From the NCBI GenBank assembly GCA_001821555.1, contig MHMM01000010.1, positions 19,629-83,628 of the forward strand: DNA of 64,000 nt, in the 5' to 3' direction. The notes beneath the pieces were generated by a model, which did not search any database, had not been told where the DNA came from, and was given only the letters and a program-made list of their open reading frames with translations. This document shows positions 21,964 to 59,455 of this stretch, one piece after another (positions within the stretch are counted from its first letter, which is position 1; the number at the start of each line of letters is the position of its first letter). A program made the position numbers and the translations under genes. Source of the DNA: Candidatus Nealsonbacteria bacterium RIFOXYB1_FULL_40_15 (GTDB lineage Bacteria > Patescibacteriota > Minisyncoccia > Minisyncoccales > GWA2-38-27).

Positions 21964-21969
21964 ATATTT

Positions 21970-31628: not shown

Positions 31629-31632
31629 ATGT

Positions 31633-32547: not shown

Positions 32548-32549
32548 AA

Positions 32550-34276: not shown

Positions 34277-34280
34277 ATTT

Positions 34281-35207: not shown

Positions 35208-36009
35208 ATTCTAATTCAATCCTGGCTTTTTCCAAAAGCTCTCCTTTTGGAACGCCATGATGCCAATGAAAATCATTTTCCATAAAAGAAACTCCCTTGC
35301 CTTTTATCGTATTTGCAACAATGGCCAGGGGCCTTCCGCTATTTCTAGAATGAATATCCGATAAAACCGAAAATATTTCGTTAAAGTTATGCCCTGATAT
35401 TTCTCTTGTATCCCATCCAAAGCCTTCCCATTTTTCTTTCAAGGGAGATATTCCTGAATATTCTTGGGTTGGACAAGTGGCCCCCACTTTGTTGTTGTCT
35501 ATTATGGCTACAAGGTTATCAAGATTTCTGGCTGAAGCGAAGTTTGCCGCCTCCCAAACAGATCCTTCGCAACATTCTCCGTCTCCCAGCAGAACAAGGA
35601 CGGAAAAAGGCTTTTTATCAAGCTTTGCTGAAAGAGCAAGGCCCGATCCTATGCCTAAACCGTGTCCCAAAGATCCTGACGAAACCTCTACTCCCGGAAT
35701 GCGGTGGTCCGGATGCCCTCCCAGTATAGAGCCGTTTCTGCCATAATTTTTAAGCTTTTCCGGGCTGAAGAATCCCAGATCGGAAAGCACCGAATATAGG
35801 GTAAGGCAGGCATGCCCTTTGCTTAAAATAAACCTGTCCCTTCCTTCCATATCGGGATTTTCAGGAGAAAAATTCATTATTTTTCCGTAATACAATGCTG
35901 TTATAATCTCAACGCAGGAAAAAGCTCCCCCCAAATGGGCCTTTCCGGCTAAAACCGCCGTTTCCAAAATTTGCCTGCGGATCCAATTTGATTTTTCCTT
36001 TAAGTCCAT
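35197..36009 (-). CDS. Transketolase N-terminal (TPP-binding) subunit
   Basis: AHLGGAFSCVEIITALYY, RDRFILSKGHACLTLY and LLGDGECCEGSVWEA. Confidence 0.85.
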   Translation of the reverse strand: MDLKEKSNWIRRQILETAVLAGKAHLGGAFSCVEIITALYYGKIMNFSPENPDMEGRDRFILSKGHACLTLYSVLSDLGFFSPEKLKNYGRNGSILGGHPDHRIPGVEVSSGSLGHGLGIGSGLALSAKLDKKPFSVLVLLGDGECCEGSVWEAANFASARNLDNLVAIIDNNKVGATCPTQEYSGISPLKEKWEGFGWDTREISGHNFNEIFSVLSDIHSRNSGRPLAIVANTIKGKGVSFMENDFHWHHGVPKGELLEKARIELEYGK

Positions 36010-36869
36010 TTTCCTTTGGGCCCCTGCGAGACCGTTAAAAAATGCTCTTCTTTAAATGGTTCTACAGTATGCAATCTTTTTTTTGAAAGTTTCCCCCTCC
36101 CTTCCTTTTCGCAGTAAAATTCACTCAAGGATTCTCCCACCCAGAAGCTGTCTAAAAGTGGCCTATCCAAGCTCACTCCGTATTGCGAAAAAAGGCGGGC
36201 AGGTGGAACTTTCGGCTTTGAAATTTTATGATAGCCCCAGGCCACAACCTTATATATCAAGGGATTTTTCAGTATAGGAAACTTTCTTTTTAAAACCTCC
36301 CTGCCCGTTAACTCCTCTACATAAGCATCCTTGGCAAAGACCAACCTGCCCCCTATTTCATACATCCTCATAGCTATATCAAGATCCCAATACAGAGCAA
36401 TAAATCTTTTGTCTATTCCGCCTATTTTTTCCCAAACTCTTTTTTTCATTAAACTTCCTGCTGGCATTCTAGGAGAGCTTTTTTCATCAGTCCAATAATA
36501 GCCATGCTTGTCGGTAAGATCCTCCCCCTCAAAAACAAACCTGCAGGAAACCATAGCTTTCTCGTCATTCATCTTTATAAATTCTTCGTATAGCTTGTCC
36601 AGGGCATGGGGAGAAAAAACGCAATCGTCTCCAAAGTGCATTATCAAATCTCCCGTTGAATAACGGGCTCCTATCTCAAAACATTGGGCTGGCTTTGTTT
36701 TAGAGTATATAAAATGGCAGTTTTCGGGCATTTCAAATTCCGGAGGATTATTCCCCACAAAAATCATTTCAAAGGGAATTTCATTTGAAGACAAAGAATT
36801 ATAAATCCTCATCCACAATTCAGGACGAATGGTTGAACCGAACAAGCTTATAATAGGACTTCTAGCCAT
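36000..36869 (-). CDS. Family X copy 3: uncharacterised GT2/GT-A-like transferase
   Basis: MARSPIISLFGSTIRPELWM, FGDDCVF, YWDLDIAMRMYEIGGRL and tail LTVSQGPKGKWT. ATG 36869 preferred to 36908. Confidence 0.5.
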   Translation of the reverse strand: MARSPIISLFGSTIRPELWMRIYNSLSSNEIPFEMIFVGNNPPEFEMPENCHFIYSKTKPAQCFEIGARYSTGDLIMHFGDDCVFSPHALDKLYEEFIKMNDEKAMVSCRFVFEGEDLTDKHGYYWTDEKSSPRMPAGSLMKKRVWEKIGGIDKRFIALYWDLDIAMRMYEIGGRLVFAKDAYVEELTGREVLKRKFPILKNPLIYKVVAWGYHKISKPKVPPARLFSQYGVSLDRPLLDSFWVGESLSEFYCEKEGRGKLSKKRLHTVEPFKEEHFLTVSQGPKGKWT

Positions 36870-37788
36870 TTTTGGTTGGTTCCCAGGCACAGAAGCAATA
36901 GCCGTCATGAAAAAGATTGCCCAAGCCCGTCTTTTTTATTTTTATTATATTTATTTTTCCTTTTGACTCCAGGTCTTTTAAAGCGGAAATAAAATTTCCC
37001 AGATATCCTCTCTTTTTATGAAATTCCAATCCTAAATAATCCACCAGAGAATTTTGATCATACAGCTCTTTAAGAGGCTCCATATGGACGCATACTTTGA
37101 AATTTTTTCTGCAAAGATATTCAAGAAAAGGCATGAAATTTTCGCCTAATTGTTCAAACCCTCCCATTGTCAAACAAGCTCCGCCTTCTTTTATTTCAAG
37201 CCCTTCGTCCGGAGAAAACATATCAAACACATGGCCTTTCATATTCCAATTATAATTTTCCGCCATTTTATCCACTATTATTTTAGAAGATTCCGACCAG
37301 TCCAATCCGTGAAGCTCTTTGTCTGGAAAAAGCTCTGCTAAAATAGGAAGGTTGTATCCCGATCCTGATCCAAATTCATAAATAGCTGAAGCGTCTTTGA
37401 AGTAATTCTCAAAAAGCCAGGTTCTGAAAACAAGATACCAATTGACTTCAAAGTCAGAATCTAGGGGCATAACATAGTCCCCCGAAAATCTTATTGATTG
37501 ATCTTGTTTTATATATTTTGGAACGAGCATTTTTAAATCGCATCCTTTGCCAACAAAATCTTTCAAATTTTCCGACCATCCCTTTTCCCAAGAGTCTTTT
37601 CTTTCTTTCCCTGAAAAAGAAAGATTTTTAGAGTTTAGTCTTTCTATCACCTTTAAAATCACTGCGTCCCGCTCTTTCTCGTCCAGCTTTCTATACCTGA
37701 AATCAAACTTTTCTATAAGTTTCCGGCAGTTTTCCGAAACCTCCCCCAAAATAGAGGAAAAATCCAAATTGTAAACAGTATTGTTCAT
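36862..37788 (-). CDS. Family Y copy 3 (more divergent): methyltransferase-like protein
   Basis: RKDSWEKGWSENL, PKYIKQDQSIR and EFGSGSGYN. Confidence 0.55.
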   Translation of the reverse strand: MNNTVYNLDFSSILGEVSENCRKLIEKFDFRYRKLDEKERDAVILKVIERLNSKNLSFSGKERKDSWEKGWSENLKDFVGKGCDLKMLVPKYIKQDQSIRFSGDYVMPLDSDFEVNWYLVFRTWLFENYFKDASAIYEFGSGSGYNLPILAELFPDKELHGLDWSESSKIIVDKMAENYNWNMKGHVFDMFSPDEGLEIKEGGACLTMGGFEQLGENFMPFLEYLCRKNFKVCVHMEPLKELYDQNSLVDYLGLEFHKKRGYLGNFISALKDLESKGKINIIKIKKTGLGNLFHDGYCFCAWEPTKNG

Positions 37789-38534
37789 TCCACTACAAAA
37801 TAAGAGGTTCTGGACGCATATCTGAATCTCTTAAGCTTTATATTATTCAATCCGAAAACTTCTTTTACCGCAGCTGTTTCTCCGGGCGAGTCATGGTCAT
37901 TCAGTTCATCAAACCCCAGCACGCTTCCTTTTATCAAATGCGGTTTTATCGCTTCAAGGCATTTTTTAGTCGGCTCATATATATCAAAATCAAAATAAGC
38001 GAGACTTATTATTGTTTCAGGATACTTTTTCAGATACTCGTCTATTGTCTGGACAGCGTCTCCTGGAACTACTTCAAACTTTTTAATATGAGAAAGGGGA
38101 TTGTCTTTTTCCTGAAATTCCATTACTTTCTCCAAATAAGCTGTGTAATTTTCGGGCAGTCCCAAGTTTCCCTGGAACATAAGATTTGAATTGCTGTCTT
38201 TTTCTGATATGGAGGGAAAACCCGTGAAAGTGTCAAATCCGACAATCTTTCTGTGGCGGTTGAATGGCTCATATATTCCCCTTAAGCTGGCAAACAAAGC
38301 CATATTCTGCCCCCACCAAGTTCCGAATTCAACAACAATACCCTGGGTGTCAATTATCTTTTTGTATATATGATCCATAAAAAGAATCCTTGCAAGATTT
38401 TTTGAATTTAAAAAAAGTCCTAAGTTAGAAAGTATTTGATCATCCGGAATCGGACAGCTTCTAAAATGCTCTGCGAACTGGCCTCTTGCTTTTGATTCTT
38501 CTTCGCTGTTGTAAAATTTTGGTATATTTTGCAT
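37785..38534 (-). CDS. TylF/MycF (macrocin O-methyltransferase)-family SAM methyltransferase
   Basis: VEFGTWWGQNMALFASLRG, VGFDTFTGFP and LAYFDFDIYEPTKKCL...GSVLGFDE. Confidence 0.6.
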   Translation of the reverse strand: MQNIPKFYNSEEESKARGQFAEHFRSCPIPDDQILSNLGLFLNSKNLARILFMDHIYKKIIDTQGIVVEFGTWWGQNMALFASLRGIYEPFNRHRKIVGFDTFTGFPSISEKDSNSNLMFQGNLGLPENYTAYLEKVMEFQEKDNPLSHIKKFEVVPGDAVQTIDEYLKKYPETIISLAYFDFDIYEPTKKCLEAIKPHLIKGSVLGFDELNDHDSPGETAAVKEVFGLNNIKLKRFRYASRTSYFVVE

Positions 38535-38543
38535 ATTAATTTA

Positions 38544-39641
38544 TTAAAGTTTTTTTCTAATATATGCCGGAATCGGCTTTTGTCCATTATGCGCGATAAC
38601 CCAAGCCCAATAGCGTATCCTTCCCTCCACTAAAGAATACCCTCCCTTTCCGTCCGATATTAGTCTTACCGGCTTTATATCTTCTTCAGGATGTTCCGAA
38701 AAATACAGGGCTAGGTCAGAAGGGCTTGGAATAAAACCCAGTTTATTTTCCAGGGCCTCGCTTTTTGTCCTGTAAACCATCCTGTTGCTCTGGCCATCGG
38801 GGCTTACCTCTATCTTATCTACCGGCGCATAGGTTGGTTTTCTGCTATAAAGAGAGCTTATCGTTTCAAAATCTTCTTTTGAAATTTTAAATCCAGAAGC
38901 TCCGGCATTTTCTTCAATATGCTTTTCAGAAACTGTGGGAATGGCGATTACCGTAGGATGCATAGTTAGCCAGTTCAGGGCTATCTGGGCAGAAGTCCTA
39001 TCGTATTTTTCAGCTATTGCATTAAAAACCTTTGTTTTTTCTTCGTCATCGTCCGGTATAATTCTCCCCTGGTCCAAAGGGCTGCACGCTATTGTTATTA
39101 TCTTTTTTTCTTCGCAATAAGGAAGAATCTTGTCTTCAATAAAATGATCAAATAAATTGTATTCTGTCTGGAAAGAAGAAATTTCTCCGAGGATTTCTGC
39201 TTCTTTCAGCTGTCCAAGATAAAAGTTGCCCACCCCTATATATCTTATTTTCCCTTGCTCTTTTAGCATTTTAAGCCCCTCCATGGTTTCTTCCATATTT
39301 ACTTTAGGATTGTGCCAATGGAACTGATATATATCTATATAATCTGTTTGGAGTCTTTTCAGACTTCCTTCGGCAGCTTTTATAACATCTTTATATGAAC
39401 TATGATCTGAAGCAAATTTACTGCAGATAATAACCTTCTCCCTCAATCCCTTGATTGCTTTTCCGACAATTATCTCTGAATTCCCCTTATCGTAGCTTTC
39501 TGCCGTATCAATTAAATTCATGCCAAGGACTATCCCTTTTTTAAGCGTAGCAACATGGCTTTCATTCCAGGGATAATCTCCCATGCCCATTCCTACAGCC
39601 GGAAAATTTAGATTAAAATGGTCCCTTAAATTTGTTTTCAT
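38544..39641 (-). CDS. Aldo/keto reductase fused to a C-terminal ParB/sulfiredoxin-like domain
   Basis: AKR region: DTAESYDKGNSEIIVGKAI and YIDIYQFHW. C-terminal ~95 aa: PVDKIEVSPDGQSNR...IKPVRLISDGKGGYSLVEGRIRYWAWVIAHNGQKPIPAYI, which follows the ParB N-terminal domain pattern (xDGxxR..A..). Confidence 0.65.
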   Translation of the reverse strand: MKTNLRDHFNLNFPAVGMGMGDYPWNESHVATLKKGIVLGMNLIDTAESYDKGNSEIIVGKAIKGLREKVIICSKFASDHSSYKDVIKAAEGSLKRLQTDYIDIYQFHWHNPKVNMEETMEGLKMLKEQGKIRYIGVGNFYLGQLKEAEILGEISSFQTEYNLFDHFIEDKILPYCEEKKIITIACSPLDQGRIIPDDDEEKTKVFNAIAEKYDRTSAQIALNWLTMHPTVIAIPTVSEKHIEENAGASGFKISKEDFETISSLYSRKPTYAPVDKIEVSPDGQSNRMVYRTKSEALENKLGFIPSPSDLALYFSEHPEEDIKPVRLISDGKGGYSLVEGRIRYWAWVIAHNGQKPIPAYIRKKL

Positions 39642-40653
39642 AGCTGTAAAATTCTTCTTCAGAAAGATCAGCCGGGGAAAGGCCCAGCATTTCTTCGGCC
39701 GTTCTTATTATTTTTTCTGCGTTGGGATAAAACTCGTTTTCAAGATGTCTCGCCGTAGGACAATGAATGTGGGAAAATCCTATTCTTTTTACGGGAAACT
39801 TAAGCTTCCCAAAGCATTTTTCTGAAACCCTAGCAGCTACTTCAGAACCAAATCCGCAGTCAATCCAGTCATTGTCGGCTACAATGCATCTTCCGGTTTT
39901 TTCAACCGATCTAATAATCATTTCGTCGTTAAAAGGAGCTATGGTTCTAGGATCTATAATTTCCGCTTCTATGCCTCTTTTTTTAAGAACTTCTGCCGCT
40001 TTTAATGCTTCTACATTCATCCAAGAAACAGCGACTATGGTAAGATCTTTCCCCTCTCTCAATATATTAGGAAGGCCTATTGGTATTTCAAATAAATTTT
40101 CGGGCACCTCTTCTTCCTGATAGTAAAGCCATCTGTGTTCCATTACTATAACCGGATTATCGTCCCTTATGGCCGAAACAAGGAGGCCTTTGGCGTCTTT
40201 GGCCGTGGTAGGAAGAACAACTTTTAGCCCTGGAATATGAGCAAAAACAGAATACATGCTTTTTGAATGCTGGAATCCCTGCCCCCATCCTCTTCCTATA
40301 ACAGCCCTTATAGTGAGAGGGACTTTCATTTTCCCTGCAGATCCGTATCTCCAGCTTGAAATAATATTAGCCAACTGATTCATCGCCAGAAGCATAAAAT
40401 CAACCCTTTCATGAATGTGCACCGGCCTCAATCCGTTTAAAGAAGCGCCCAGTCCAAAGCCAGTCATTGCATCTTCTGAAATCGGGGTGTCAAAACATCT
40501 TTCCTCTCCGAACTTCTCCACCAGATTCTCGGTCGTTCCAAATATTCTTTTCACGTCAGGAACCCCGATTCCATAAACAAAAACACTCGGGTCTCTTTCC
40601 ATCTCCTGAATCAAAGCTTCGTTTATCGCTTGTTTATAGCTTATCTTTCTCAT
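39613..40653 (-). CDS. 2-oxoacid dehydrogenase E1 component beta subunit-like (AviB2-like)
   Basis: ISYKQAINEALIQEMERDPSVFVYG and FDTPISEDAMTGFGLGASLNG. ATG 40653 preferred. Confidence 0.85.
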   Translation of the reverse strand: MRKISYKQAINEALIQEMERDPSVFVYGIGVPDVKRIFGTTENLVEKFGEERCFDTPISEDAMTGFGLGASLNGLRPVHIHERVDFMLLAMNQLANIISSWRYGSAGKMKVPLTIRAVIGRGWGQGFQHSKSMYSVFAHIPGLKVVLPTTAKDAKGLLVSAIRDDNPVIVMEHRWLYYQEEEVPENLFEIPIGLPNILREGKDLTIVAVSWMNVEALKAAEVLKKRGIEAEIIDPRTIAPFNDEMIIRSVEKTGRCIVADNDWIDCGFGSEVAARVSEKCFGKLKFPVKRIGFSHIHCPTARHLENEFYPNAEKIIRTAEEMLGLSPADLSEEEFYSYENKFKGPF

Positions 40654-41581
40654 AAAAAATATCTTTATGCGCTTCTTCTTTTCCGGCAAAAGGAGCTGAT
40701 TCCGCCAGAGATATGCTTTTTTCTATCTGTTCATCCTGCTCTTTTTCTATTCTAACCGCGTCTTCTTCTGAAACTCTTTTTCTTAATAATTCCACGGGGT
40801 CTTTCTTCCTCCATTCTTCAAACTCTTCTTTTGGGCGATATTCGTCAAAATATTGGTTGACTCCAACATGTTCTAAATATCTGTAGTAGTTAAAATGCAA
40901 AAAACAGGGCATTCTGTTCTCTTTCATTATATCCAAAGCTTTCTTTGTTGTATTATAAACAACTTCTGCATCCACGCCCTCTTCTTCAAAAACATTGCAT
41001 CTGAATTTGGATGCTATTTCTGAAATTGATTCGTACCCATGCCTCTTGGATATGGGCGTATTTTTGGCGAAACCGTTGTCTTCGCAGATAAATAAAATAG
41101 GAAGCTCCATAAGGCAGGCGATATTTATGCTTTCCCAAAAACACCCTTCTTCAATAGCCCCGTCTCCGAAGAATATAGCTGTTATTTTATTGTTTTTAAT
41201 CCTTTTATTGGCAAAAGCGGCTCCCACAGCCACTGATATCCCTCCCGAAACAATAGCCAATGTGCTCATAAGGCCGTTTTCAGGAGAATTAAGATGCATT
41301 GATCCTGCCTTTCCTTTTGATCCTCCGGTCGCCTTGCCGAACATTTCAGCAAAGAATTCGTCTGTTTCTCCTGTTTTGGAAAGATACAAGGCATGGCTTC
41401 TGCAGCTTCCCAAAACCTGATCTTCTTTATTTAATGCTTGGCACACTCCAGCCGAAATCGCCTCTCCGCCCATAGACATATGCATAGGAGTCTTCATTTT
41501 GTCTTCAGGATAAAGCTGGCAGATTCTTTCTTCGGCTTTTCTGATCAAATAAACCTTTTTGTATAAATCCAGAATTGTCAT
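40634..41581 (-). CDS. TPP-dependent 2-oxoacid dehydrogenase E1 component alpha subunit-like (AviB1-like)
   Basis: FFGDGAIEEGCFWESINIACLMELPILFICEDNGFA. The track start 41602 is TTG. ATG 41581 forms an ATGA overlap with the upstream stop. Confidence 0.85.
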   Translation of the reverse strand: MTILDLYKKVYLIRKAEERICQLYPEDKMKTPMHMSMGGEAISAGVCQALNKEDQVLGSCRSHALYLSKTGETDEFFAEMFGKATGGSKGKAGSMHLNSPENGLMSTLAIVSGGISVAVGAAFANKRIKNNKITAIFFGDGAIEEGCFWESINIACLMELPILFICEDNGFAKNTPISKRHGYESISEIASKFRCNVFEEEGVDAEVVYNTTKKALDIMKENRMPCFLHFNYYRYLEHVGVNQYFDEYRPKEEFEEWRKKDPVELLRKRVSEEDAVRIEKEQDEQIEKSISLAESAPFAGKEEAHKDIFYEKDKL

Positions 41582-43587
41582 TTGCTTAAATAATTCCTCC
41601 AATAATTAAGAATATCTTTTAAAGTGTCATCAAACTTAATTTCTGCTTCCCAGCCAGTTTCTTTCTTGAACTTGTCCGTGCAAGGAATCTGCAAAGTAAC
41701 ATCAGACGGCCTTAATCTTTCAGGGTCCTGCTCCACTCTTATATCCTTGACTGTAGAAAGAGCCAGGAGTTTCTGCAACATCTCTTTTACAGTCATGGTT
41801 TCAACGCCTCCCACATTATATACTTCTCCGGGGGTGCATTTTTCGGGTAAAATCCAGTATGCCCTTACAGCATCTTTCACGTCTAGAAAAGTCCTTATGC
41901 TTTCAAGATTTCCCACTTTAACAACCGGATCTTTTAGCCCTGCTTCTATTTCAGCTATCTGCTTTGCAAAGGTTGATTCAACGAAGACTTCGCCCCTCCT
42001 TGGACCAGTATTGTGGACAATATTGCCTCCAATCCCCGCGTGAAACCAATGATTTTCGGTTTCAAGATCCCAGACTTCGCCAGAATATTGCAATTCTGTT
42101 ATTTTTACAATATCGTTATCTCCTTTCAATAAATGTCTTCCTCTATTGGTTTTCAGTTGAGAAAGACATCTGATTTCAAAATATCTTTTTTCATCTCTAT
42201 GCTCTACAATAATTCTGTATTTACAGTTCAATGCGGTTTCTATAATAAAACAAATTCCTAATGCTAAAATAGGTGATTTTGTTTTAAATCTGTAAAACTT
42301 GCTTTTTACTTTATTTCTCAAGTCTCCGTCTCCGTCATTATAGCCAGAAAGAAAAGCTAATTTAGATTTTTTATCGGCATTAAGAATAATTTGAGGAATT
42401 TTTTTATTTTTATCGACAGCATAACAATCTTGATAAAAACGTTTAGCAATATAAAAAGGTTTTCTTAAATATAATCTGTAAACGCCGCCTTCCCCTGGGA
42501 TTATCTTACTATCAATTGCTAAATTTTTAATCAAAATATTTTGAGCTTTTTTTAATTTACTTTCGTCTTTATTGTCAATGTGCATCCGGCCGCCGCTCAC
42601 ACAGCCTTCCGCGACAAAAAAACCATACAACCAAGCAACTTCTTCGTTCACGGAAGTAATTTCTATTTTAGGAAAAAATGTCAATTTAATTTTATTTCCG
42701 ATTTTTAACTCTCCTGCCTTTACTTCCATGCCAGATTCGTCTATCAAAGAATGATTGTCTGTGGCATCTATCACTCCTCCGCGGCAAGCCACTTCTAGCA
42801 TTTTAACACCATTAATCGGATGGCAAGATATATGCTTAATCTTTATCCAATTTCCGTCATTCCATACCTCCATGCTATTTCTATTCAAGTCCCAAACTTG
42901 TGTACCATCCTTTAACAATGTTCCAGAAAGATAGCCACCCCTTTTTAACGGAGACCTGATCTCTGAAATATATTTTATATCTATCAACCCGCTTATAGAG
43001 TCTCTTAAAATAATAGGCGTCCATTTGCTTACGCTATGCGTAAAAAGTCTTGTTCTTATAGTTCTTATCTTCCAGGACAGCCAGTATTGCAATCCGAGCA
43101 TATCTTCTGCCACCTTGCTCACAGCATAAGGGGAGGCCGGACGAAAAGGATTCTCCTCTTTGATCGGAGTCTCCCCTTCTTTTACCTGCCCGTAGACTTC
43201 CGAAGAAGAACAGATATGCACCACAGGATCGTACCCCGAACCTAACTTTAACTTTTTGACTGCCTCCAAAAGATTAGCTGTCCCTATGACATTGGACTGC
43301 AGAGTGGCTATGGGGGCCTGAAAACTAAAGTCAACATAAGATTGGGCCGCCAGATGAAAAATAACATCCGGCCTGTGCTTTTCCAGCATTGACTGCAAAG
43401 AAGAAAGATCAACCAAGTCTCCCTGACAAAGAGTGATTTTCCCTAAACAGTGTTTTATATTCTCTTTCGGAGACCTCCACCGAACCAGCCCTACAATCTG
43501 AACTTCGGGATGATTTTCCAATATGAAATCCGCCAAATGGCTTCCTACAAAACCGGTTATTCCTGTTATTAAAACTTTTTTTATCAT
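41578..43587 (-). CDS. GDP-mannose 4,6-dehydratase/Rmd-family extended SDR, interrupted by an intein
   Basis: Exteins: MIKKVLITGITGFVGSHL...FHLAAQSYV...SPYAVSKVAED...RTRLFTH | TGPRRGEVFVESTFAKQIAEIEAG. ATG 43587 forms an ATGA overlap with the wzt stop; ATG 43605 is an alternative. The 72 extra N-terminal codons of the ORF track (to 43803) lie inside wzt and are rejected. Confidence 0.85.
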   Translation of the reverse strand: MIKKVLITGITGFVGSHLADFILENHPEVQIVGLVRWRSPKENIKHCLGKITLCQGDLVDLSSLQSMLEKHRPDVIFHLAAQSYVDFSFQAPIATLQSNVIGTANLLEAVKKLKLGSGYDPVVHICSSSEVYGQVKEGETPIKEENPFRPASPYAVSKVAEDMLGLQYWLSWKIRTIRTRLFTHSVSKWTPIILRDSISGLIDIKYISEIRSPLKRGGYLSGTLLKDGTQVWDLNRNSMEVWNDGNWIKIKHISCHPINGVKMLEVACRGGVIDATDNHSLIDESGMEVKAGELKIGNKIKLTFFPKIEITSVNEEVAWLYGFFVAEGCVSGGRMHIDNKDESKLKKAQNILIKNLAIDSKIIPGEGGVYRLYLRKPFYIAKRFYQDCYAVDKNKKIPQIILNADKKSKLAFLSGYNDGDGDLRNKVKSKFYRFKTKSPILALGICFIIETALNCKYRIIVEHRDEKRYFEIRCLSQLKTNRGRHLLKGDNDIVKITELQYSGEVWDLETENHWFHAGIGGNIVHNTGPRRGEVFVESTFAKQIAEIEAGLKDPVVKVGNLESIRTFLDVKDAVRAYWILPEKCTPGEVYNVGGVETMTVKEMLQKLLALSTVKDIRVEQDPERLRPSDVTLQIPCTDKFKKETGWEAEIKFDDTLKDILNYWRNYLSK
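42010..43035 (-). mobile_element. Intein (342 aa) with LAGLIDADG homing-endonuclease domain
   Basis: Inserted exactly in the conserved FxH|TGPRRGE motif. Ser1 (SVSKWTPIIL, block A), TDNH (block B), LAGLIDADG motifs LYGFFVAEGCV and AFLSGYNDGDGDL, C-terminal GNIVHN followed by Thr+1. I checked the junction codons by hand (CAC AAT | ACT at 42015..42007). Confidence 0.8.
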
Positions 43588-44834
43588 AATTTTTCGGTCT
43601 GCCATTCCAAAAGGGGGCGGATGGCTCCCAAATGCTGGCCGGGCATATAAATTATTCTTTCTTCTGAATTTTCTTCGTAGATCCTGAAAAAAACCGCAGG
43701 CTCTGCTATAGCATCCGCAGGCATTGAAATATCGGAACTCAAATAAGCATTTACCGTATAAGTACCCTCGTTCAAAAGATTGGCGGGTATTCTGCAGGAG
43801 CATTTATAAAGGCCGGGTGCATATTCTTTTTTTCCCCACTTTTTATCGTGCAGATTAGTAGCATAAAACACTAAGCTTCCAAACTGGTTATAAATATGGA
43901 AAACGGGGTTCATCTTTGATTTTTTAAGGCACCAAAATTCAAATTGGACGATAACAGGATCTTCTTTCTTTATATTTTGAGACACCTCTCCTTTTTCATT
44001 GACAGCTTTCACAGATTTGAACTTAAGAGTATCCGATCCCGGAGCATCCTCCAAACTCCATGAAATTTGGCTTGAAGACCCTCCGTCAAGTGAAAGATAT
44101 TCATTTACCACTTCATCAGTCCTGCCCTGTTTTTTAATCTTCCCCTGGCTCAATAATATGGCTTTATTGCATAAAGAAGACACTGCAGACATATTGTGGC
44201 TTACAAACAGCACCGTTCTCCCTCCTTTTGCCACGCCCTCCATTCTTTTAAGGCATTTTTTCTGAAAAGCAGTATCGCCGACTGCCAAAACCTCGTCTAT
44301 TATAAGAATTTCGGGCTCTAAATGGGCAGCCACCGAAAAGGCCAGCCGGACATACATCCCGCTTGAATATCTCTTTACGGGAGTGTCTAGAAACTGCCCG
44401 ATTTCAGCAAATTCCACTATCTCATCAAATTTGGATTCTATTTCTTTTTTAGTCATGCCCAGTATGGCTCCATTCAGATAAACATTCTCCCTGCCGGTAA
44501 GTTCAGGATGAAATCCTGTTCCGACTTCAAGAAGACTTCTGACCCGCCCCCGGATCACAGCCCTCCCTTCTGTGGGCGGAGTAATTCTAGAAAGTATTTT
44601 TAAAAGCGTGCTTTTTCCGGCTCCATTAAGCCCTATTATCCCAAGGACTTCTCCTTCTTCAACCGAAAAATTCACCCCGTCCAAAGCCCAAAAGTTTCCC
44701 TTGCTCCGGTTTTTGATCCAATCTTTTGGATTTCTTATAAAATTAGAAATGTCTTCCCTCAAAGAAAAATACGCTTCCTTTCTTAACCCTATGCGATAAC
44801 TCTTTGAAAGATTTTCAACCTCAATGACTTTCAT
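43584..44834 (-). CDS. wzt: Polysaccharide ABC exporter ATP-binding protein with C-terminal carbohydrate-binding (Wzt_C-like) domain
   Basis: GIIGLNGAGKSTLL (Walker A), YSSGMYVRLAF (signature), ILIIDEVLAVGD (Walker B), plus a ~160-aa beta-rich C-terminal extension. Confidence 0.85.
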   Translation of the reverse strand: MKVIEVENLSKSYRIGLRKEAYFSLREDISNFIRNPKDWIKNRSKGNFWALDGVNFSVEEGEVLGIIGLNGAGKSTLLKILSRITPPTEGRAVIRGRVRSLLEVGTGFHPELTGRENVYLNGAILGMTKKEIESKFDEIVEFAEIGQFLDTPVKRYSSGMYVRLAFSVAAHLEPEILIIDEVLAVGDTAFQKKCLKRMEGVAKGGRTVLFVSHNMSAVSSLCNKAILLSQGKIKKQGRTDEVVNEYLSLDGGSSSQISWSLEDAPGSDTLKFKSVKAVNEKGEVSQNIKKEDPVIVQFEFWCLKKSKMNPVFHIYNQFGSLVFYATNLHDKKWGKKEYAPGLYKCSCRIPANLLNEGTYTVNAYLSSDISMPADAIAEPAVFFRIYEENSEERIIYMPGQHLGAIRPLLEWQTEKL

Positions 44835-45646
44835 ATAAGGTCAGCGAAGAACATTTCTGTCCTGCGAAAATAAATAATGCCCGCAAAGAATAAAACAATG
44901 CCAATCAGGGCTGATGTTCCTAAAAGACTCCAGTTGATCGCTCCCGTCCCCAAAAGGCCGGCTCTCATTGTTTCTATGACTCCTGACATTGGATTCAAAT
45001 ACCAAAGCCATTGGTATCTTCCTAAAATGCTAGTCGGGTATATGACCGGCGTTATAAAAATAAGAAGCTGGAGAAAAAAAGGCAAAGCATATCTCACATC
45101 CCTGTATTTTACGTTAATAGCAGCCAGCATTAATCCCAATCCCGAAAAAGAAAGAAATGTTATTACAAGACAGGGAATTACCAGAATTATACCCAAAAAT
45201 GTCGGGACAAAGCCGTAATAAACCATTAGAGCCGCAAAAATAACAGTTGCCAGCAGAAAATCTACGAAATAAACAATTGTTGAAGAAAGCGGAAGAATAA
45301 GCCGGGGAAAATAGACTTTTTGAATAAGGTTCTGGCCTCCCAGCAAGCTTGAGGATATCCCGCTCAAAGATCCCGAAAAAAAAGTCCAGAAAAGAAGGCC
45401 AGTATAAACAAAAATAGGATAAGGTATGTCCCCAGAATTTATGCCAGCCACTCTTCCAAAAAAAATAGTGAAAACAAACATAGTTACAAATGGCTGGAGA
45501 ATCGCCCAAAGAACTCCCAGAACCGTCTGCTTGTATCTCACTTTAAGATCGCGCCAGGCAAAAAAATACAGAAGCTCCCTGTATATCCAAAATTCCTTAA
45601 AATCCAGTTTGAATTTTCTTTTAGAGTCTATAACGATTGTATTCAT
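44831..45646 (-). CDS. wzm: ABC-2 type polysaccharide exporter permease
   Basis: RDLKVRYKQTVLGVLWAILQP and six predicted TM segments. Confidence 0.85.
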   Translation of the reverse strand: MNTIVIDSKRKFKLDFKEFWIYRELLYFFAWRDLKVRYKQTVLGVLWAILQPFVTMFVFTIFFGRVAGINSGDIPYPIFVYTGLLFWTFFSGSLSGISSSLLGGQNLIQKVYFPRLILPLSSTIVYFVDFLLATVIFAALMVYYGFVPTFLGIILVIPCLVITFLSFSGLGLMLAAINVKYRDVRYALPFFLQLLIFITPVIYPTSILGRYQWLWYLNPMSGVIETMRAGLLGTGAINWSLLGTSALIGIVLFFAGIIYFRRTEMFFADLI

Positions 45647-46146
45647 GCCCTCCTTATCTTATTGATTATTTCGGTTGAAGAAACCATCTTCAAGAAATCA
45701 GGAACAACTCTTTTAACCGTTTTAAGTTCTATCCCCAAAGTCTCGGACAATTTTCTTTTCTCTTCAATAGCGGAATCGTCGTCGTTCAAAATATAAAAAT
45801 CTGGTTTTAGTTTTTTCAAAAGAGAAACAAAATGAACTTTTCCCGAACTTAATTCTTCGTCAGCTAAGAGAACATAATCCACATCTTTCATTGAGGCCAA
45901 TAAAAAAAGTCTGTTCTGCTCGTTATTAACAGGCCTTTCGGAACCCTTAAGCTCTTTTATTATTCGATCGGTTCCCAACCCTACCACCAATAAATCGGCA
46001 AATTCTTTGCATTGGCCAAAGAATACGGCATGGCCTGAATGTAGAATATCAAAACACCCGGAGCAAAAAGCAATCTTTTTATCTTTATTCTCAATTCTTA
46101 TCCTCTCTAGATCCTGATAGCTTATAATATTTTTTAGGATTACCAT
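45643..46146 (-). CDS. Cytidylyltransferase-fold nucleotidyltransferase (RfaE domain II / TagD-like)
   Basis: FCSGCFDILHSGHAVFF (HxGH) and KELKGSERPVNNEQNRLFLLASMKDVDYV. Confidence 0.65.
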   Translation of the reverse strand: MVILKNIISYQDLERIRIENKDKKIAFCSGCFDILHSGHAVFFGQCKEFADLLVVGLGTDRIIKELKGSERPVNNEQNRLFLLASMKDVDYVLLADEELSSGKVHFVSLLKKLKPDFYILNDDDSAIEEKRKLSETLGIELKTVKRVVPDFLKMVSSTEIINKIRRA

Positions 46147-49814: not shown

Positions 49815-52058
49815 ATGGTAATTCCCGACAAATACTACAAGGTTTTTTTGTATTCCTTTTGTTTTATTTTGCTTCTTCCATTTTTTTCAGCTCCTCCCTG
49901 GCTTCACCCTTCTGCCTGGGGAAAGGCGATAATCTTCAGAATAATTTCTTCTATTCTTATTTTCCTATTTATATATCTTTTGGCCTCAAAAAAAGGATAT
50001 ATAAAAAGGGAGGATTTTTTGGATAAGAAAAGTGGCGTTTTCTGGCCATCCTGGACACTTGCCGTATTTTTAGCACTTGTCTTTATATCTGTTATCTTTT
50101 CCAAAGATCCCTTTTACAGCTTTTGGGAATCTCCTTTCAGGGGAGGAGGATTCCTTAATTATTTCTTGTGCGTAGCCACGGCTATTCTGGCTTTTTTGAT
50201 AATTAAGAAAGGGGACTGGCCTAGGATTTGGTTCTTTGCGACAATTTCAGGCATTTTAGTCTCGTTCGTGGCTGTATTCCAAAAATTCGGCATATTTTCA
50301 AAAACCATTATTCCCTATGCCGAAAGGCCTCCGGGGACAATGGGAGGACCTACTTTTTTAGCGGTTTATCTTTTGCTTTTGGCTTTTGCGGCTCTTTCTT
50401 TTTTATTTAAAGAAAAGGGCTGGAAAAAGATTTTTTACGTCTTCGCATTTATTTTATTCTTTTACGTAATCCTGCTTACCGGAAGCAGAGCTTCTTATTT
50501 CGGGCTTTTAGCAGGAATTCTTTACTTTCTTTTCTTCTTCCCCCAAAAAAAGCTTTGGGCAGTTAAAATTATTGCTGTTTTGATTCTTTTCCTTGCTGTT
50601 TACAGCGTCTATAGGGTCAATTATGTATCTAGAGATCTTTTTCTCCCCGCCCTAAACAACAACAAAGAAGCGCAGGAACTTTTAAACAGAATGTCTGTAA
50701 GACTATTTTTGGAAGATCCTAGGTTTTCTGCTTGGAAGCTTTCTGCAGAAGCCATAAAAGAAAATCCTGTTCTGGGATGGGGCCCCGAAAATTACTCTAT
50801 TGCTTTTGACAAGTATTATGACCCTGCTCTGCCGTTTATAAACAGAGCATGGGGAAGCTGGTACGACAAAGCCCATAATTTTTTGATTGACATAGCCGTC
50901 TCGTCTGGAATCCCCGCCCTAATTGCATTCCTCTCTTTTATTGCAGTTCTTTTTCTAAAACTAAGAAAGTCTGAAGATCCTTTAATGTCGCACGGTGTCC
51001 GGACCAGCATCTTTGCTTACTTTGGAGCCAATCTTTTTAGCTTTGACACATTTTCAACTTATTTGATATTCTTTTTTGTTATTGCTTTTGGATTAAAAAT
51101 TATCTCAAAAGATGAACTAGGCGAAGAGAAAAAGAGAGCAGATGTTTCTCTCTGGAAAACAGGCCTTATTTTCGTTTCCTTTTTTGTTCTTATAGCATTT
51201 CTTTGGCATGGATGCTTAAAGCCCCTAAAGATAAACAAAGAAATAAACTACGCTGATTTTTATTTGAAGCAGGGGAACTGCGATAAAGCTCTGGAAAAAA
51301 TGGGGATCATCGCCTCTTCAAAAAGCATTATAGACAGTTATTTGCGGCTCCAGTACACAGATATTATAAGGGGCTGTATCCAGCAAAATGCCAAAACTAA
51401 AGCCGAACTGGCCCCTTTAGCTGTTTCTATTTTAAAAGAAGAAAAAGAATTAAGGCCTTTTTACACTAGAACCTGGATAACATTAGCATCATACCTAAAC
51501 GCTTTGGACAAAGCAGAAGAAGCTATTTTGGCCTTTGAAGGGGCGCTGGAATTAAGCCCCAAAAGAGAAGAATCGTTTTCCGGCCTTATAGATTCTCTTT
51601 TCCTCTCAAAAAATTATGAAAGGGCAACAAAAGAAGCTGATAAATGCTTAGATAATATTCCTGAATCTGCGCTCTGCTGGTGGAAAAAATCCCTATCGCA
51701 TATTTATCTAGAAGAGCTGGATAATGCGGATTTTGCCGAAAAAGAAGCCATAAAAAGAGGGTTTAATCCTATTTCCCCCAAGCCTATTTCCGAAACAATA
51801 ATAGCTTACATGGATTTAGCTTTAAAAACCAAAGATAAAAAGATAAAAGAAGCTTCTTATCTTAAGCTGGCTGACTGTTATCAAAAGCTGATACTTTATG
51901 TGGACTACAACAACTACCAATACCATGCCTCTCTTGCATATGCCTATAAGGAGCTGGGAGAAACAAAGAAGGCCAAGGAAGAAGCCCTTGTTGTGATAAA
52001 ACTTGCTCCCGAACTGAAGAGCCAGGTTGAAGAGTTTATTAAAAATCTCACAAAATGA
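49815..52058 (+). CDS. O-antigen ligase/Wzy_C-family polytopic membrane protein with C-terminal TPR domain (candidate O-oligosaccharyltransferase)
   Basis: 747 aa with ~12 TM helices. LLTGSRASYFGLLAG and GWGPENYSIAFDKYYD are Wzy_C-like. The C-terminal 250 aa form TPR-like helical repeats. Confidence 0.75.
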   Translation: MVIPDKYYKVFLYSFCFILLLPFFSAPPWLHPSAWGKAIIFRIISSILIFLFIYLLASKKGYIKREDFLDKKSGVFWPSWTLAVFLALVFISVIFSKDPFYSFWESPFRGGGFLNYFLCVATAILAFLIIKKGDWPRIWFFATISGILVSFVAVFQKFGIFSKTIIPYAERPPGTMGGPTFLAVYLLLLAFAALSFLFKEKGWKKIFYVFAFILFFYVILLTGSRASYFGLLAGILYFLFFFPQKKLWAVKIIAVLILFLAVYSVYRVNYVSRDLFLPALNNNKEAQELLNRMSVRLFLEDPRFSAWKLSAEAIKENPVLGWGPENYSIAFDKYYDPALPFINRAWGSWYDKAHNFLIDIAVSSGIPALIAFLSFIAVLFLKLRKSEDPLMSHGVRTSIFAYFGANLFSFDTFSTYLIFFFVIAFGLKIISKDELGEEKKRADVSLWKTGLIFVSFFVLIAFLWHGCLKPLKINKEINYADFYLKQGNCDKALEKMGIIASSKSIIDSYLRLQYTDIIRGCIQQNAKTKAELAPLAVSILKEEKELRPFYTRTWITLASYLNALDKAEEAILAFEGALELSPKREESFSGLIDSLFLSKNYERATKEADKCLDNIPESALCWWKKSLSHIYLEELDNADFAEKEAIKRGFNPISPKPISETIIAYMDLALKTKDKKIKEASYLKLADCYQKLILYVDYNNYQYHASLAYAYKELGETKKAKEEALVVIKLAPELKSQVEEFIKNLTK

Positions 52059-54274: not shown

Positions 54275-54287
54275 AATCAACATCAAC

Positions 54288-54317
54288 AAAAGAGCCCCCG
54301 CAAGGGGGCTCTTTTTA
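54288..54317. terminator. Bidirectional rho-independent terminator between convergent genes
   Basis: AGAGCCCCC-GCAA-GGGGGCTCT (54291..54312), flanked by an A run on the 5' side and a T run on the 3' side. Confidence 0.8.
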
Positions 54318-58752: not shown

Positions 58753-58866
58753 GAATTTTGAATAAATAATTTTGCGGGACCCTGCGAGCGCGGCGGCGGG
58801 AGCACGAGGAATTTTTCAGCAGAAAAATATCCGTGTCCAGCAAAATTCGTTTATTCAAAAAATTCT
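58752..58866. repeat. 115-nt imperfect palindrome with a GC-rich core (candidate structured RNA or MITE-like element)
   Basis: The left arm AGAATTTTGAATAAATAATTTTGCGGGAC (58752..58780) pairs with the right arm GTCCAGCAAAATTCGTTTATTCAAAAAATTCT (58835..58866). I counted about 26 of 29 positions complementary by hand. The core contains GCGAGCGCGGCGGCGGGAGCACGAGG and an inner hairpin ATTTTTC-AGCA-GAAAAAT (58811..58828). Confidence 0.6.
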
Positions 58867-58880
58867 GACTATTGGATATT

Positions 58881-59396: not shown

Positions 59397-59402
59397 TTTG
59401 TT

Positions 59403-59455
59403 GGGACATTTTAATAGGACAATGTTATACTTCTGTCTGTCCTATCGTGTCCTAT
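59403..59455 (-). promoter_or_regulatory. Operator-like array of the octamer ATAGGACA overlapping a putative promoter of the sigma gene
   Basis: Plus strand: ATAGGACA (59414..59421), 16 nt, TGTCCTAT (59438..59445), CG, TGTCCTAT (59448..59455), plus a partial GGGACA at 59403..59408. A TATAAC -10 candidate (minus strand, 59429..59424) lies inside the 16-nt spacer. Confidence 0.4.

What the first reader, a model, noticed from the sequence alone, without database searches (positions are those of the whole stretch)
42010..43035. LAGLIDADG intein splitting the catalytic FxH|TGPRRGE motif of a Gmd/Rmd-family sugar-nucleotide dehydratase
The 741-codon ORF has a 342-aa insert. Removing it restores a contiguous ~327-aa extended SDR (RTRLFTH+TGPRRGEVFV). 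All splicing elements are present: Ser1, block B TDNH, the penultimate His-Asn (GNIVHN) and Thr+1. There are also two LAGLIDADG motifs (LYGFFVAEGCV, AFLSGYNDGDGDL). Inteins usually target replication, recombination or nucleotide-metabolism genes. A sugar-nucleotide enzyme is a rare host; the only classic parallel I recall is the UDP-glucose dehydrogenase intein of Methanocaldococcus. This is also the first biosynthetic gene after wzt/wzm, so splicing efficiency could gate the whole pathway.
Basis: partly seen in the sequence, partly recalled or inferred. Interest (0 to 1): 0.75.

Follow-up and report, generated by a model that had tools for sequence, protein, structure and literature searches.

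The report
Homing-endonuclease intein in a sugar dehydratase
A self-splicing, mobile protein insert (a LAGLIDADG intein) really does interrupt a GDP-sugar 4,6-dehydratase-like gene in this Candidatus Nealsonbacteria glycan locus, but the same intein sits at the same site in well over a hundred public protein clusters, so it is a genuine yet fairly ordinary member of a known kind.

Summary
Window 42010..43035 (minus strand) encodes a 342-aa insert inside an extended-SDR gene. The gene most likely starts at ATG 43587, giving a 669-aa precursor rather than 741 aa. Removing the insert gives a 327-aa protein that aligns without a gap across FTH|TGPRRGE to 120 intein-free homologs (73-81% identity) and to PDB 7US5.

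The insert passes the tests for an intein:
- Pfam Intein_splicing and LAGLIDADG_3 are above cut-off.
- An AlphaFold model (pLDDT 85.7) matches the TliVMA, PhoVMA, PI-PfuI, PI-PkoII and PI-SceI inteins.
- Ser1, T-x-x-H, block F Asp, His-Asn, Thr+1 and both LAGLIDADG acidic residues are conserved among sampled intein-bearing homologs.

The host is not rare. All 120 listed hits carry this intein, and about 21 species-representative genomes do, including archaea. Related inteins sit one residue downstream in canonical Gmd, and a gmd intein is mentioned for Thermosynechococcus. UniRef already names this protein a DOD-type homing-endonuclease-domain protein.

Low intein GC, intein-free nearest extein neighbours and at least 10 gains or losses on the extein tree point to a mobile element. 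Splicing and cleavage remain inferred. Interest is modest: a new member of a known kind.

The parts
41578..43587 (-). Precursor gene: 669-aa intein-containing GDP-sugar 4,6-dehydratase-like extended SDR. ATG 43587 overlaps the wzt stop as ATGA. The stop codon is 41578-41580.
   Evidence: called as 669 aa on public contigs; NCBI OGZ27165.1 / UniRef100_A0A1G2ETV1.
43036..43587 (-). N-extein, aa 1-184. It holds the Rossmann motif GITGFVGS, the catalytic SSSE and YAVSK, and ends ...RTRLFTH.
   Evidence: Pfam GDP_Man_Dehyd stretch 6-185. Motif positions. Translation.
42010..43035 (-). Intein, 342 aa (SVSKWTP...GNIVHN).
42685..43035 (-). N-terminal part of the splicing (HINT) domain, intein aa 1-117. 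It includes Ser1 (43033-43035) and block B TDNH (42751-42762). The boundary is approximate, taken from the AlphaFold secondary structure.
   Evidence: (block A Ser nearly invariant, 1 Cys of 13; block B T and H invariant in 13 diverse homologs).
42160..42684 (-). LAGLIDADG (DOD) homing-endonuclease domain, intein aa 118-292. Motif 1 is AWLYGFFVAEG (42604-42636, acidic residue Glu143). Motif 2 is AFLSGYNDGDG (42325-42357, acidic residue Asp236).
   Evidence: Pfam LAGLIDADG_3 with 2 stretches. Sequence matches to PI-PkoII, VMA inteins and I-DmoI. Fold matches. E-G and G-D-G invariant.
42010..42159 (-). C-terminal part of the splicing domain, intein aa 293-342. It holds block F VWDLETENHWFH (42040-42075) and block G ending His341-Asn342 (42010-42015).
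41578..42009 (-). C-extein (143 aa plus stop), beginning with Thr+1 (42007-42009) in TGPRRGEVF.

Best explanation
The gene encodes a 669-aa precursor in which a full-length (class-1-type) intein carrying a LAGLIDADG homing endonuclease is inserted between His184 and Thr185 of a 327-aa GDP-sugar 4,6-dehydratase-like extended SDR. This site lies in the conserved F-T/N-H-T-G-P-R-R-G loop.

Inferred splicing steps:
1. After translation the HINT domain folds.
2. Ser1 makes an N-to-O acyl shift on the His184 carbonyl.
3. The ester is passed to the Thr+1 hydroxyl.
4. Asn342 cyclises and releases the intein.
5. An O-to-N shift restores the peptide bond, giving the contiguous FTH-TGPRRGE enzyme.

That enzyme would supply an NDP-4-keto-6-deoxy sugar to the downstream thiamine-diphosphate enzymes and reductase of the glycan locus.

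The freed 342-aa intein is inferred to be a monomeric double-motif LAGLIDADG endonuclease. It would cut intein-less alleles at the DNA encoding FTH/TGPRRG, so that repair copies the intein in (homing). This would explain its patchy spread across bacteria and archaea.

Shown here: the anatomy, the conserved residues, the predicted fold, the presence/absence polymorphism, the compositional foreignness and the partial decoupling of intein and extein histories. Inferred: actual splicing, endonuclease activity and the enzyme's substrate.
For: 1. Exact excision restores the host. The spliced sequence aligns end to end without a gap at the junction to PDB 7US5, a GDP-D-glycero-D-manno-heptose 4,6-dehydratase (E 4e-97, TH|SGPRR), and to Rmd 2PK3. 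All 120 intein-free homologs (73-81% identity, 325-359 aa) have 0 residues in the insert columns.

2. Intein signatures. Pfam Intein_splicing scores 37.3 (cut-off 35.8) and LAGLIDADG_3 scores 43.6 (cut-off 22.5). There are sequence hits to PI-PkoII and to the TliVMA/PhoVMA inteins. The AlphaFold model has pLDDT 85.7 and pTM 0.88. Foldseek's top hits are 7QSU, 7QSS, 7QST, 1DQ3, 2CW7 and PI-SceI, with E from 6e-22 to 1e-10, and I-DmoI matches the endonuclease lobe.

3. Functional residues are conserved.
   - In the junction motif scan of the 120 listed hits, nearly all show H|S (2 with Cys) and HN|T/S followed by GPRR.
   - In 13 diverse homologs T92, H95, E143-G144, G235-D236-G237, D323, H341 and N342 are invariant, and Ser1 is nearly invariant (one Cys).
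   - In 113 aligned intein-bearing proteins the -1 residue is His in all 113, and the +1 residue is Thr in 107 and Ser in 6.

4. Purifying selection acts on the whole element. Mean pairwise identity is 0.56 for the intein and 0.57 for the extein. The endonuclease domain (0.554) is about as conserved as the HINT parts (0.568 and 0.590).

5. Mobility.
   - Intein GC is 34.0% against 43.8% and 41.2% for the exteins, and GC3 is 29% against 45% and 38%. That puts it in the lowest 0.7% of 1026-nt windows of this region.
   - The query's 15 nearest extein neighbours are all intein-free, and at least 10 state changes are needed on an NJ extein tree.
   - An intein-free ortholog (P0127, 79% identity) sits in similar synteny: wzm, wzt, two extra genes, gmd, E1alpha, E1beta.
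   - Some pairs are discordant. P0001/P0035 have extein 0.51 and intein 0.75. QUERY/P0075 have extein 0.65 and intein 0.37.
   - Carriers include Omnitrophica, Desulfobacteraceae, Rokubacteria, Limnocylindria, Fervidibacter and Aenigmatarchaeota.

6. It is not an assembly artefact. The same 669-aa protein is present in several sources, and contigs 100% and 99.7% identical to the window exist.
Against: - No experiment shows splicing or DNA cleavage for this intein or, as far as I could find, for any member of its group.
- The Ser1/Thr+1 pair of oxygen nucleophiles is less common than the Cys versions and can splice slowly.
- Extein and intein identities correlate strongly overall (r = 0.88), so most of the history is co-inheritance with the host gene rather than frequent independent homing.
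- The tree test rests on a quick NJ tree and on an intein-free sample chosen for similarity to the query.
- The extein reaches no NCBIfam equivalog cut-off (gmd 166 against 415; dTDP-glucose dehydratase 174 against 365), so its substrate is unknown.
Confidence: 0.9

Rival explanations
1. A splicing-competent intein whose endonuclease is no longer active: a fixed, decaying or domesticated passenger that is simply co-inherited with the dehydratase gene.
For: Extein and intein identities correlate strongly (r = 0.88), as expected for mostly vertical co-inheritance. No cleavage data exist.
Against: - Both LAGLIDADG acidic residues and a conserved Lys (NKK/RIP) are invariant across 13 diverse homologs.
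- The endonuclease domain is about as conserved as the splicing domain (0.554 against 0.568 and 0.590). An inactive endonuclease would be expected to decay or be deleted to a mini-intein.
- Presence is patchy, with at least 10 state changes, and the query's nearest extein relatives are intein-free.
- The intein GC is foreign to its surroundings.
Confidence: 0.2
2. Conditional protein splicing. The intein would act as a post-translational switch that holds the first committed dehydratase of the glycan pathway inactive until some signal permits splicing.
For: - The insert splits a loop that must be contiguous for a functional SDR, so the unspliced precursor is probably inactive (inference from the gapless alignment to 7US5).
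- The intein is as conserved as its host.
- Pro at +3 is kept in 110 of 113 intein-bearing alleles but in only 87 of 120 intein-free ones (Fisher p = 4e-8; not corrected for phylogeny).
Against: - Nothing in the sequence points to a sensor.
- The junction nucleophiles are Ser and Thr, so the known redox (disulfide) traps of Cys1/Cys+1 inteins cannot operate at the junction.
- The closest orthologs work without any intein in similar gene neighbourhoods, so it is dispensable.
- The conservation is equally explained by selection for efficient splicing and for homing.
Confidence: 0.07
3. A non-splicing inserted domain, retained in the mature enzyme, or a disrupted pseudogene.
For: One public variant contig (L037) has the gene split into 172-aa and 469-aa calls, caused by a short deletion just upstream of the intein.
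Against: - The window ORF is intact and is identical in several sources.
- All residues needed only for splicing (Ser1, T-x-x-H, block F Asp, His-Asn, +1 Thr/Ser) are conserved or nearly so across phyla.
- The insert is exactly absent from homologs that are 73-81% identical.
- Its predicted fold is that of solved splicing inteins.
Confidence: 0.02

Closest known systems
Endonuclease-containing archaeal inteins with solved structures: TliVMA and PhoVMA (PDB 7QSU, 7QSS, 7QST), PI-PfuI (1DQ3), PI-PkoII (2CW7) and yeast PI-SceI (1VDE)
   Same: The architecture is the same: a HINT splicing domain interrupted by a two-motif LAGLIDADG endonuclease. These are the best fold matches (E 6e-22 to 1e-10, TM about 0.55-0.64 for the top five archaeal inteins and about 0.4 for PI-SceI) and the best sequence matches. 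The block A, B, F and G residues are the same.
   Different: - Sequence identity is only 10-21%.
- The host protein is a sugar-nucleotide SDR rather than V-ATPase, RNR or a DNA polymerase.
- The nucleophiles are Ser1/Thr+1 rather than the Cys1 of the VMA inteins.
- It lacks the extra DNA-recognition or stirrup domains that make PI-PfuI, PI-PkoII and PI-SceI larger (342 aa against 454-537 aa).
Inteins in canonical GDP-mannose 4,6-dehydratase (gmd): representatives P0256, P0259, P0265, P0286 and P0324, plus the 'type II intein in gmd' mentioned for Thermosynechococcus sp. TA-1/CL-1 (PMC9403480)
   Same: The host superfamily is the same (Pfam GDP_Man_Dehyd, 332-431 bits for P0256, P0259, P0265 and P0286). 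The loop is the same. The intein lineage is related (about 31-33% identity over the full length, E about 1e-32 to 1e-25).
   Different: - The insertion point is one residue downstream: FNHE|C...HN|SPRRG there, FTH|S...HN|TGPRRG here.
- Those inteins use Cys1/Ser+1; this one uses Ser1/Thr+1.
- The host subfamily differs. The window's extein is closest to 7US5 and Rmd and does not reach the gmd equivalog score.
- I could not read the Thermosynechococcus sequence itself, so its exact site is unknown to me.
   Same: It is an intein in a nucleotide-sugar enzyme rather than a replication or recombination protein.
   Different: The enzyme family is unrelated (COG1004 dehydrogenase, not an extended SDR dehydratase). 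The site and the taxa are different. No sequence comparison was made here.
Extein: Campylobacter jejuni GDP-D-glycero-D-manno-heptose 4,6-dehydratase (PDB 7US5) and the GDP-6-deoxy-D-lyxo-4-hexulose reductase Rmd (2PK3, 6X3B)
   Same: These are the best solved relatives of the spliced protein (328.5, 209.5 and 162.8 bits). The alignment covers the full length and crosses the junction without a gap. The SSSE and YxxxK motifs are shared with 7US5.
   Different: None of them contains an intein. The substrate of the window enzyme is untested, and no NCBIfam equivalog cut-off is reached.

Membership tests
Intein (HINT-domain protein-splicing element, class 1) | An in-frame insertion that is precisely absent from orthologs, whose removal restores a contiguous conserved host sequence | tested here: met
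   120 of 120 intein-free homologs (73-81% identity) have 0 residues in the insert columns, and FTH|TG is contiguous in them. The alignment to 7US5 is gapless at the junction. An intein-free ortholog lies in similar synteny.
Intein (HINT-domain protein-splicing element, class 1) | N-terminal nucleophile (Cys/Ser) at intein position 1 (block A) | tested here: met
   Ser1 is at 43033-43035. Ser is nearly universal, with Cys in 2 proteins, where the motif scan matched.
Intein (HINT-domain protein-splicing element, class 1) | Block B T-x-x-H | tested here: met
   TDNH is at 42751-42762. T and H are invariant in 13 diverse homologs.
Intein (HINT-domain protein-splicing element, class 1) | Blocks F and G: conserved Asp in block F, penultimate His, C-terminal Asn, and a Cys/Ser/Thr at +1 | tested here: met
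   VWDLETENHWFH...IVHN|T. D323, H341 and N342 are invariant. The +1 residue is Thr in 107 and Ser in 6 of 113 proteins.
Intein (HINT-domain protein-splicing element, class 1) | HINT fold | tested here: met
   The AlphaFold model has pLDDT 85.7. Foldseek probability is 1.00 to solved inteins, including the mini-inteins 5O9I and 5O9J. Pfam Intein_splicing scores 37.3 against a cut-off of 35.8. This is a predicted structure, not a solved one.
Intein (HINT-domain protein-splicing element, class 1) | Demonstrated protein splicing (ligated exteins plus free intein) | not testable with these tools
   This needs expression followed by SDS-PAGE or mass spectrometry.
LAGLIDADG (DOD) homing endonuclease, two-motif monomeric type | Two LAGLIDADG helices, each ending in a catalytic Asp/Glu followed by Gly | tested here: met
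   The motifs are AWLYGFFVAEG and AFLSGYNDGDG. E-G and G-D-G are invariant. Pfam LAGLIDADG_3 scores 43.6 bits with 2 stretches.
LAGLIDADG (DOD) homing endonuclease, two-motif monomeric type | Pseudo-dimeric alpha-beta-beta-alpha-beta-beta-alpha fold | tested here: met
   The predicted secondary structure of model residues 139-298 follows this pattern twice. There are fold matches to I-DmoI (TM normalised to target about 0.6) and I-Tsp061I.
LAGLIDADG (DOD) homing endonuclease, two-motif monomeric type | Site-specific cleavage of the intein-less allele, and homing | not testable with these tools
   Only indirect support is available: patchy distribution with at least 10 gains or losses, discordant intein and extein identities, and low intein GC.
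GDP-mannose 4,6-dehydratase (Gmd, NCBIfam TIGR01472 equivalog), for the extein | Score at or above the curated equivalog cut-off | tested here: not met
   The spliced extein scores 166 bits against a cut-off of 415. The dTDP-glucose 4,6-dehydratase model gives 174 against 365. It belongs to the Pfam GDP_Man_Dehyd/Epimerase superfamily, and its closest solved relatives are 7US5 and Rmd.
Extended SDR NDP-sugar 4,6-dehydratase (general) | GxxGxxG Rossmann motif, Ser/Thr-x-Glu, and the YxxxK catalytic set | tested here: met
   GITGFVGS is at aa 9, SSSE at aa 127-130 and YAVSK at aa 154, all in the N-extein. These columns are conserved in the alignment.

The most novel reading that the evidence does not exclude
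The intein is more than a passenger. It has persisted, with an intact endonuclease and host-level sequence conservation, in one loop of GDP-sugar dehydratases of both bacteria and archaea. Sister inteins sit one codon away in canonical Gmd, and a second intein occupies the catalytic Ser site in some alleles. One reading is that this reflects a functional role: conditional splicing that tunes surface-glycan synthesis. Another is that glycan loci, as hot spots of gene exchange, sustain an unusually long-lived homing cycle outside the usual replication and nucleotide-metabolism hosts.
Probability: 0.1. Interest if true: 0.6.

Novelty: new member of a known kind. Interest (0 to 1): 0.3.

Why it matters
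It adds a well-supported example, in fact a large and uncharacterised family, of inteins in a cell-surface glycan enzyme rather than in replication, recombination or nucleotide-metabolism proteins.

Practical points:
- Genome annotators should treat these ~670-aa 'GDP-mannose dehydratases' or 'hypothetical proteins' as a ~327-aa enzyme plus an intein.
- The Ser1/Thr+1 all-oxygen nucleophile pair and the compact 342-aa size could interest intein engineers.
- The many natural intein-plus and intein-minus allele pairs, and the one-codon-shifted sister site in canonical Gmd, give a tidy natural system for studying homing-site specificity.

It does not open a new kind of biology.

Tried and rejected
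- **Literature.**
  - 'intein' with 'Ndse' (an InBase name I half-remembered for a sugar epimerase intein) found nothing.
  - 'intein' with 'nucleotide sugar' and 'LAGLIDADG' found nothing.
  - The supplementary tables of Novikova et al. 2016, which might list minor hosts, are not held.
  - A search for the 7US5 structure paper did not find it. The role of the F-x-H-x-G-P-R-R loop in substrate binding therefore rests on my own knowledge of Gmd structures, not on a paper read here.
- **Genome scan.** The genome-contig scan did not return the window's own genome (best match 72%). The organism was identified instead by exact protein look-up as Candidatus Nealsonbacteria, GCA_001821575.1.
- **Artefact or pseudogene.** I considered an assembly artefact or pseudogene because one variant contig splits the gene. 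I rejected this for the window, whose ORF is intact and is reproduced in several sources.
- **Canonical Gmd.** I considered whether the extein is canonical Gmd and rejected it on the NCBIfam score.
- **Other inteins.** I looked for further inteins in the nine largest other ORFs of the window and found none.
- **dN/dS.** I did not attempt dN/dS. The nearest intein relatives are about 73% identical in protein, so synonymous sites would be saturated, and the 99.7%-identical strain has too few differences.
Full report

Yes. The longest ORF on the minus strand at 41578..43803 has 741 codons.

The true start is almost certainly ATG 43587. It overlaps the stop codon of the upstream wzt gene in an ATGA arrangement. 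Independent gene calls on public contigs that are 100% and 99.7% identical to the window give a 669-aa product.

Translating the individual coordinates confirms every motif quoted:
- Ser1: 43033-43035
- TDNH: 42751-42762
- AWLYGFFVAEG: 42604-42636
- AFLSGYNDGDG: 42325-42357
- VWDLETENHWFH: 42040-42075
- His-Asn: 42010-42015
- Thr+1: 42007-42009

**2. What is it?**

*Family matches.* On the precursor, Pfam finds GDP_Man_Dehyd and Epimerase each split into two stretches around the insert. On the insert alone, LAGLIDADG_3 scores 43.6 bits (cut-off 22.5, two stretches) and Intein_splicing scores 37.3 bits (cut-off 35.8). NCBIfam matches the insert only to intein-containing archaeal proteins, namely RNA polymerase A'', V-ATPase A, Tes, RFC and IF-2.

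*Solved structures, by sequence.* The insert matches the intein PI-PkoII, three V-ATPase inteins and I-DmoI. The conceptually spliced 327-aa protein aligns over its full length, with no gap at the junction (TH|TGPRR against TH|SGPRR), to 7US5, a GDP-D-glycero-D-manno-heptose 4,6-dehydratase (E 4e-97). It also aligns to the Rmd reductases 2PK3 and 6X3B and to many Gmd and RmlB structures.

*Predicted structure.* An AlphaFold model of the insert, built on a 13-sequence alignment, is confident (mean pLDDT 85.7, pTM 0.88). Its best structural neighbours are all endonuclease-bearing inteins: TliVMA, PhoVMA, PI-PfuI, PI-PkoII and PI-SceI, with E from 6e-22 to 1e-10. I-DmoI-type enzymes match the central lobe, and mini-inteins match the HINT lobe.

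**3. Homologs with and without the insert**

*With the insert.* A search with the precursor returned 689 proteins at E <= 1e-5. All 120 listed carry the LAGLIDADG domain. Most are 653-697 aa, a few are fragments, and two are about 1040 aa. In nearly all of them a simple motif scan finds H|S (two have Cys) at the N-junction and HN|T/S followed by GPRR at the C-junction.

The best 120 are 325-359 aa, 73-81% identical over 98-100% of the query, and lack the insert. Aligned with the precursor, all 120 place zero residues in the insert columns and read ...FTH TG... contiguously.

*Shared neighbourhood.* One intein-free ortholog (P0127, 79% identity) sits in similar surroundings: wzm, wzt, two extra genes, gmd, E1alpha, E1beta. 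The intein-bearing relative P0001 also has the E1 pair nearby.

Together this is the classical signature of an intein: an insertion that is either precisely present or precisely absent, at a highly conserved site.

**4. Conservation of the functional residues**

In 13 diverse intein-bearing homologs (40-73% identical to the query) the following are invariant in intein numbering:
- the block B Thr92 and His95
- E143-G144 of LAGLIDADG motif 1
- G235-D236-G237 of motif 2
- a Lys in the NKK/RIP segment
- the block F Asp323
- His341 and Asn342

Ser1 is nearly invariant, with one Cys among the 13.

Across 113 aligned full-length proteins, His at -1 is invariant, and +1 is Thr in 107 and Ser in 6.

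Mean pairwise identity is 0.56 for the intein and 0.57 for the extein. The endonuclease domain (0.554) is about as conserved as the two HINT segments (0.568 and 0.590). The whole element, nuclease included, therefore looks to be under purifying selection. That argues for an active or recently active homing endonuclease rather than a decaying one.

**5. Evidence for mobility**

- *Composition.* The intein DNA is compositionally foreign: GC 34.0% against 43.8% and 41.2% in the two extein parts, and GC3 29% against 45% and 38%. It lies in the lowest 0.7% of 1026-nt windows across the 64 kb.
- *Extein tree.* On a neighbour-joining tree of 113 intein-bearing and 120 intein-free exteins, intein presence needs at least 10 changes. 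The 15 nearest extein neighbours of the window gene are all intein-free.
- *Intein against extein history.* Intein and extein identities correlate overall (r = 0.88), so co-inheritance dominates. Clear discordances exist: P0001/P0035 have extein 0.51 and intein 0.75, P0004/P0016 have 0.68 and 0.90, and QUERY/P0075 have 0.65 and 0.37.
- *Taxonomic spread.* Among GTDB species representatives, about 21 genomes carry this intein allele. They come from an unclassified bacterial MAG, Syntrophaceae, Desulfobacteraceae, Omnitrophica, Rokubacteria/Methylomirabilota, Binatia, Acidimicrobiia, Limnocylindria, Fervidibacter/Armatimonadota, Aenigmatarchaeota and another archaeon.
- *Wider intein family.* An exhaustive profile-free search with the intein alone found 1764 representative relatives (685 at E <= 1e-10) in many different host proteins. 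Some are canonical Gmd enzymes in which a related intein (about 31-33% identity) sits one residue further on: FNHE|C...HN|SPRRG.

**6. Mechanism**

The most likely mechanism is standard class-1 splicing with oxygen nucleophiles:
1. N-to-O acyl shift at Ser1.
2. Transesterification to Thr+1.
3. Asn342 cyclisation.
4. O-to-N shift.

This regenerates the FTH-TGPRRGE loop of a 327-aa NDP-sugar 4,6-dehydratase-like SDR and releases a 342-aa LAGLIDADG endonuclease that targets intein-less alleles. These steps are inferred from conserved residues and from the predicted fold. None is demonstrated.

The catalytic SDR residues (SSSE at aa 127-130, Y154-x-x-x-K158) lie entirely in the N-extein. From my own knowledge of Gmd structures, the split loop is a nucleotide-sugar-binding element. 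'Catalytic motif' is therefore imprecise, but the site is typical of inteins in being highly conserved and functionally critical.

**7. Comparison with what is known, and novelty**

The window comes from a Candidatus Nealsonbacteria (CPR/Patescibacteria) genome from the Rifle aquifer data set (GCA_001821575.1, contig MHMN01000012.1). The protein is already in NCBI as OGZ27165.1 ('hypothetical protein'). UniRef names it 'DOD-type homing endonuclease domain-containing protein', so automatic annotation has flagged the nuclease domain.

In the searchable literature I found a single passing mention of a full-length intein in gmd, in Thermosynechococcus (PMC9403480). The Novikova et al. 2016 survey lists only UDP-glucose/GDP-mannose dehydrogenase among sugar-nucleotide hosts in its main tables.

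The finding is therefore a genuine but uncharacterised member of a known kind.

The extein itself does not reach the NCBIfam equivalog score for Gmd or RmlB. Its nearest characterised relatives are the C. jejuni GDP-heptose 4,6-dehydratase and Rmd. Its substrate is open.

**8. The 'gating' idea**

The precursor is probably inactive until spliced, but nothing indicates regulation:
- The junction residues are Ser and Thr, so there is no junction Cys for the known redox traps.
- The nearest orthologs lack the intein in similar operon contexts.
- The gene is preceded in the operon by a cytidylyltransferase-like gene as well as by wzm and wzt.

I give this reading a low probability.

**9. Verdict**

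Novelty is 'new member of a known kind', and interest is about 0.3.

Noticed in passing
Related proteins P0080 and P0115 (1039 and 1040 aa); no counterpart in the window: Some homologs carry two inteins. One is at the FTH|S site. The second is a LAGLIDADG intein at HVCS|C...CGN|SSE, directly in front of the catalytic Ser-x-Glu of the SDR. Pfam splits GDP_Man_Dehyd into three stretches in both proteins.
   Followed up: partly
Representative proteins P0256, P0259, P0265, P0286, P0324 and P0387: Canonical GDP-mannose 4,6-dehydratases host related inteins (about 31-33% identity to this one). They are inserted one residue downstream in the same loop (FNHE|C...HN|SPRRG) and use Cys1/Ser+1 instead of Ser1/Thr+1. 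It is unclear whether this reflects independent invasions or a shift of the site.
   Followed up: partly
Extein position 187 (+3 after the splice site); window codon 42001-42003: Pro at +3 is kept in 110 of 113 intein-bearing alleles but in only 87 of 120 close intein-free alleles, where it is replaced by Ala, Glu, Lys, Ser or Asn. Fisher p = 4e-8 without phylogenetic correction. This could be a splicing-context constraint or target-site escape from the endonuclease.
   Followed up: partly
Locus L037 (ENA ERZ28563639 scaffold_6719), corresponding to window ~43074-43100: A 99.8%-identical variant contig lacks about 27-35 nt of the N-extein just upstream of the intein. The gene there is called as two pieces of 172 aa and 469 aa. 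It is either an assembly error or a disrupted allele in the population.
   Followed up: partly
window 417..46146 (-), especially 26244-30462 and 33329-41602: About 46 kb of tightly packed same-strand genes form a glycan locus unusually rich in thiamine-diphosphate enzymes. These are an E1alpha/E1beta pair directly after the dehydratase, a split transketolase pair, a further Transket_pyr/C protein and an acetolactate-synthase-like TPP enzyme. The locus also holds an aldo-keto reductase, a radical SAM protein, an asparagine synthase and glycosyltransferases. This suggests branched or chain-extended deoxysugars built on the 4-keto product of the intein-bearing enzyme.
   Followed up: partly
window 49815..54274 (+): Two tandem paralogous proteins of about 740 aa have Wzy_C (O-antigen ligase/polymerase) domains. 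One also has TPR repeats. They are transcribed divergently from the ABC-transporter-type (wzm/wzt) glycan operon.
   Followed up: no
window 53100..54300 and 58850..60000: These are the only other stretches of the window with GC as low as the intein (0.32-0.34 over 1026 nt). They could be further horizontally acquired segments.
   Followed up: no
Intein-free extein homologs P0138, P0140, P0187 and P0203: Very close intein-free homologs of the extein (74-79% identity) are labelled as coming from Patescibacteria (Staskawiczbacteria), Candidatus Methanoperedens and Nanoarchaeota. The dehydratase gene itself seems to move across domains, independently of the intein.
   Followed up: no
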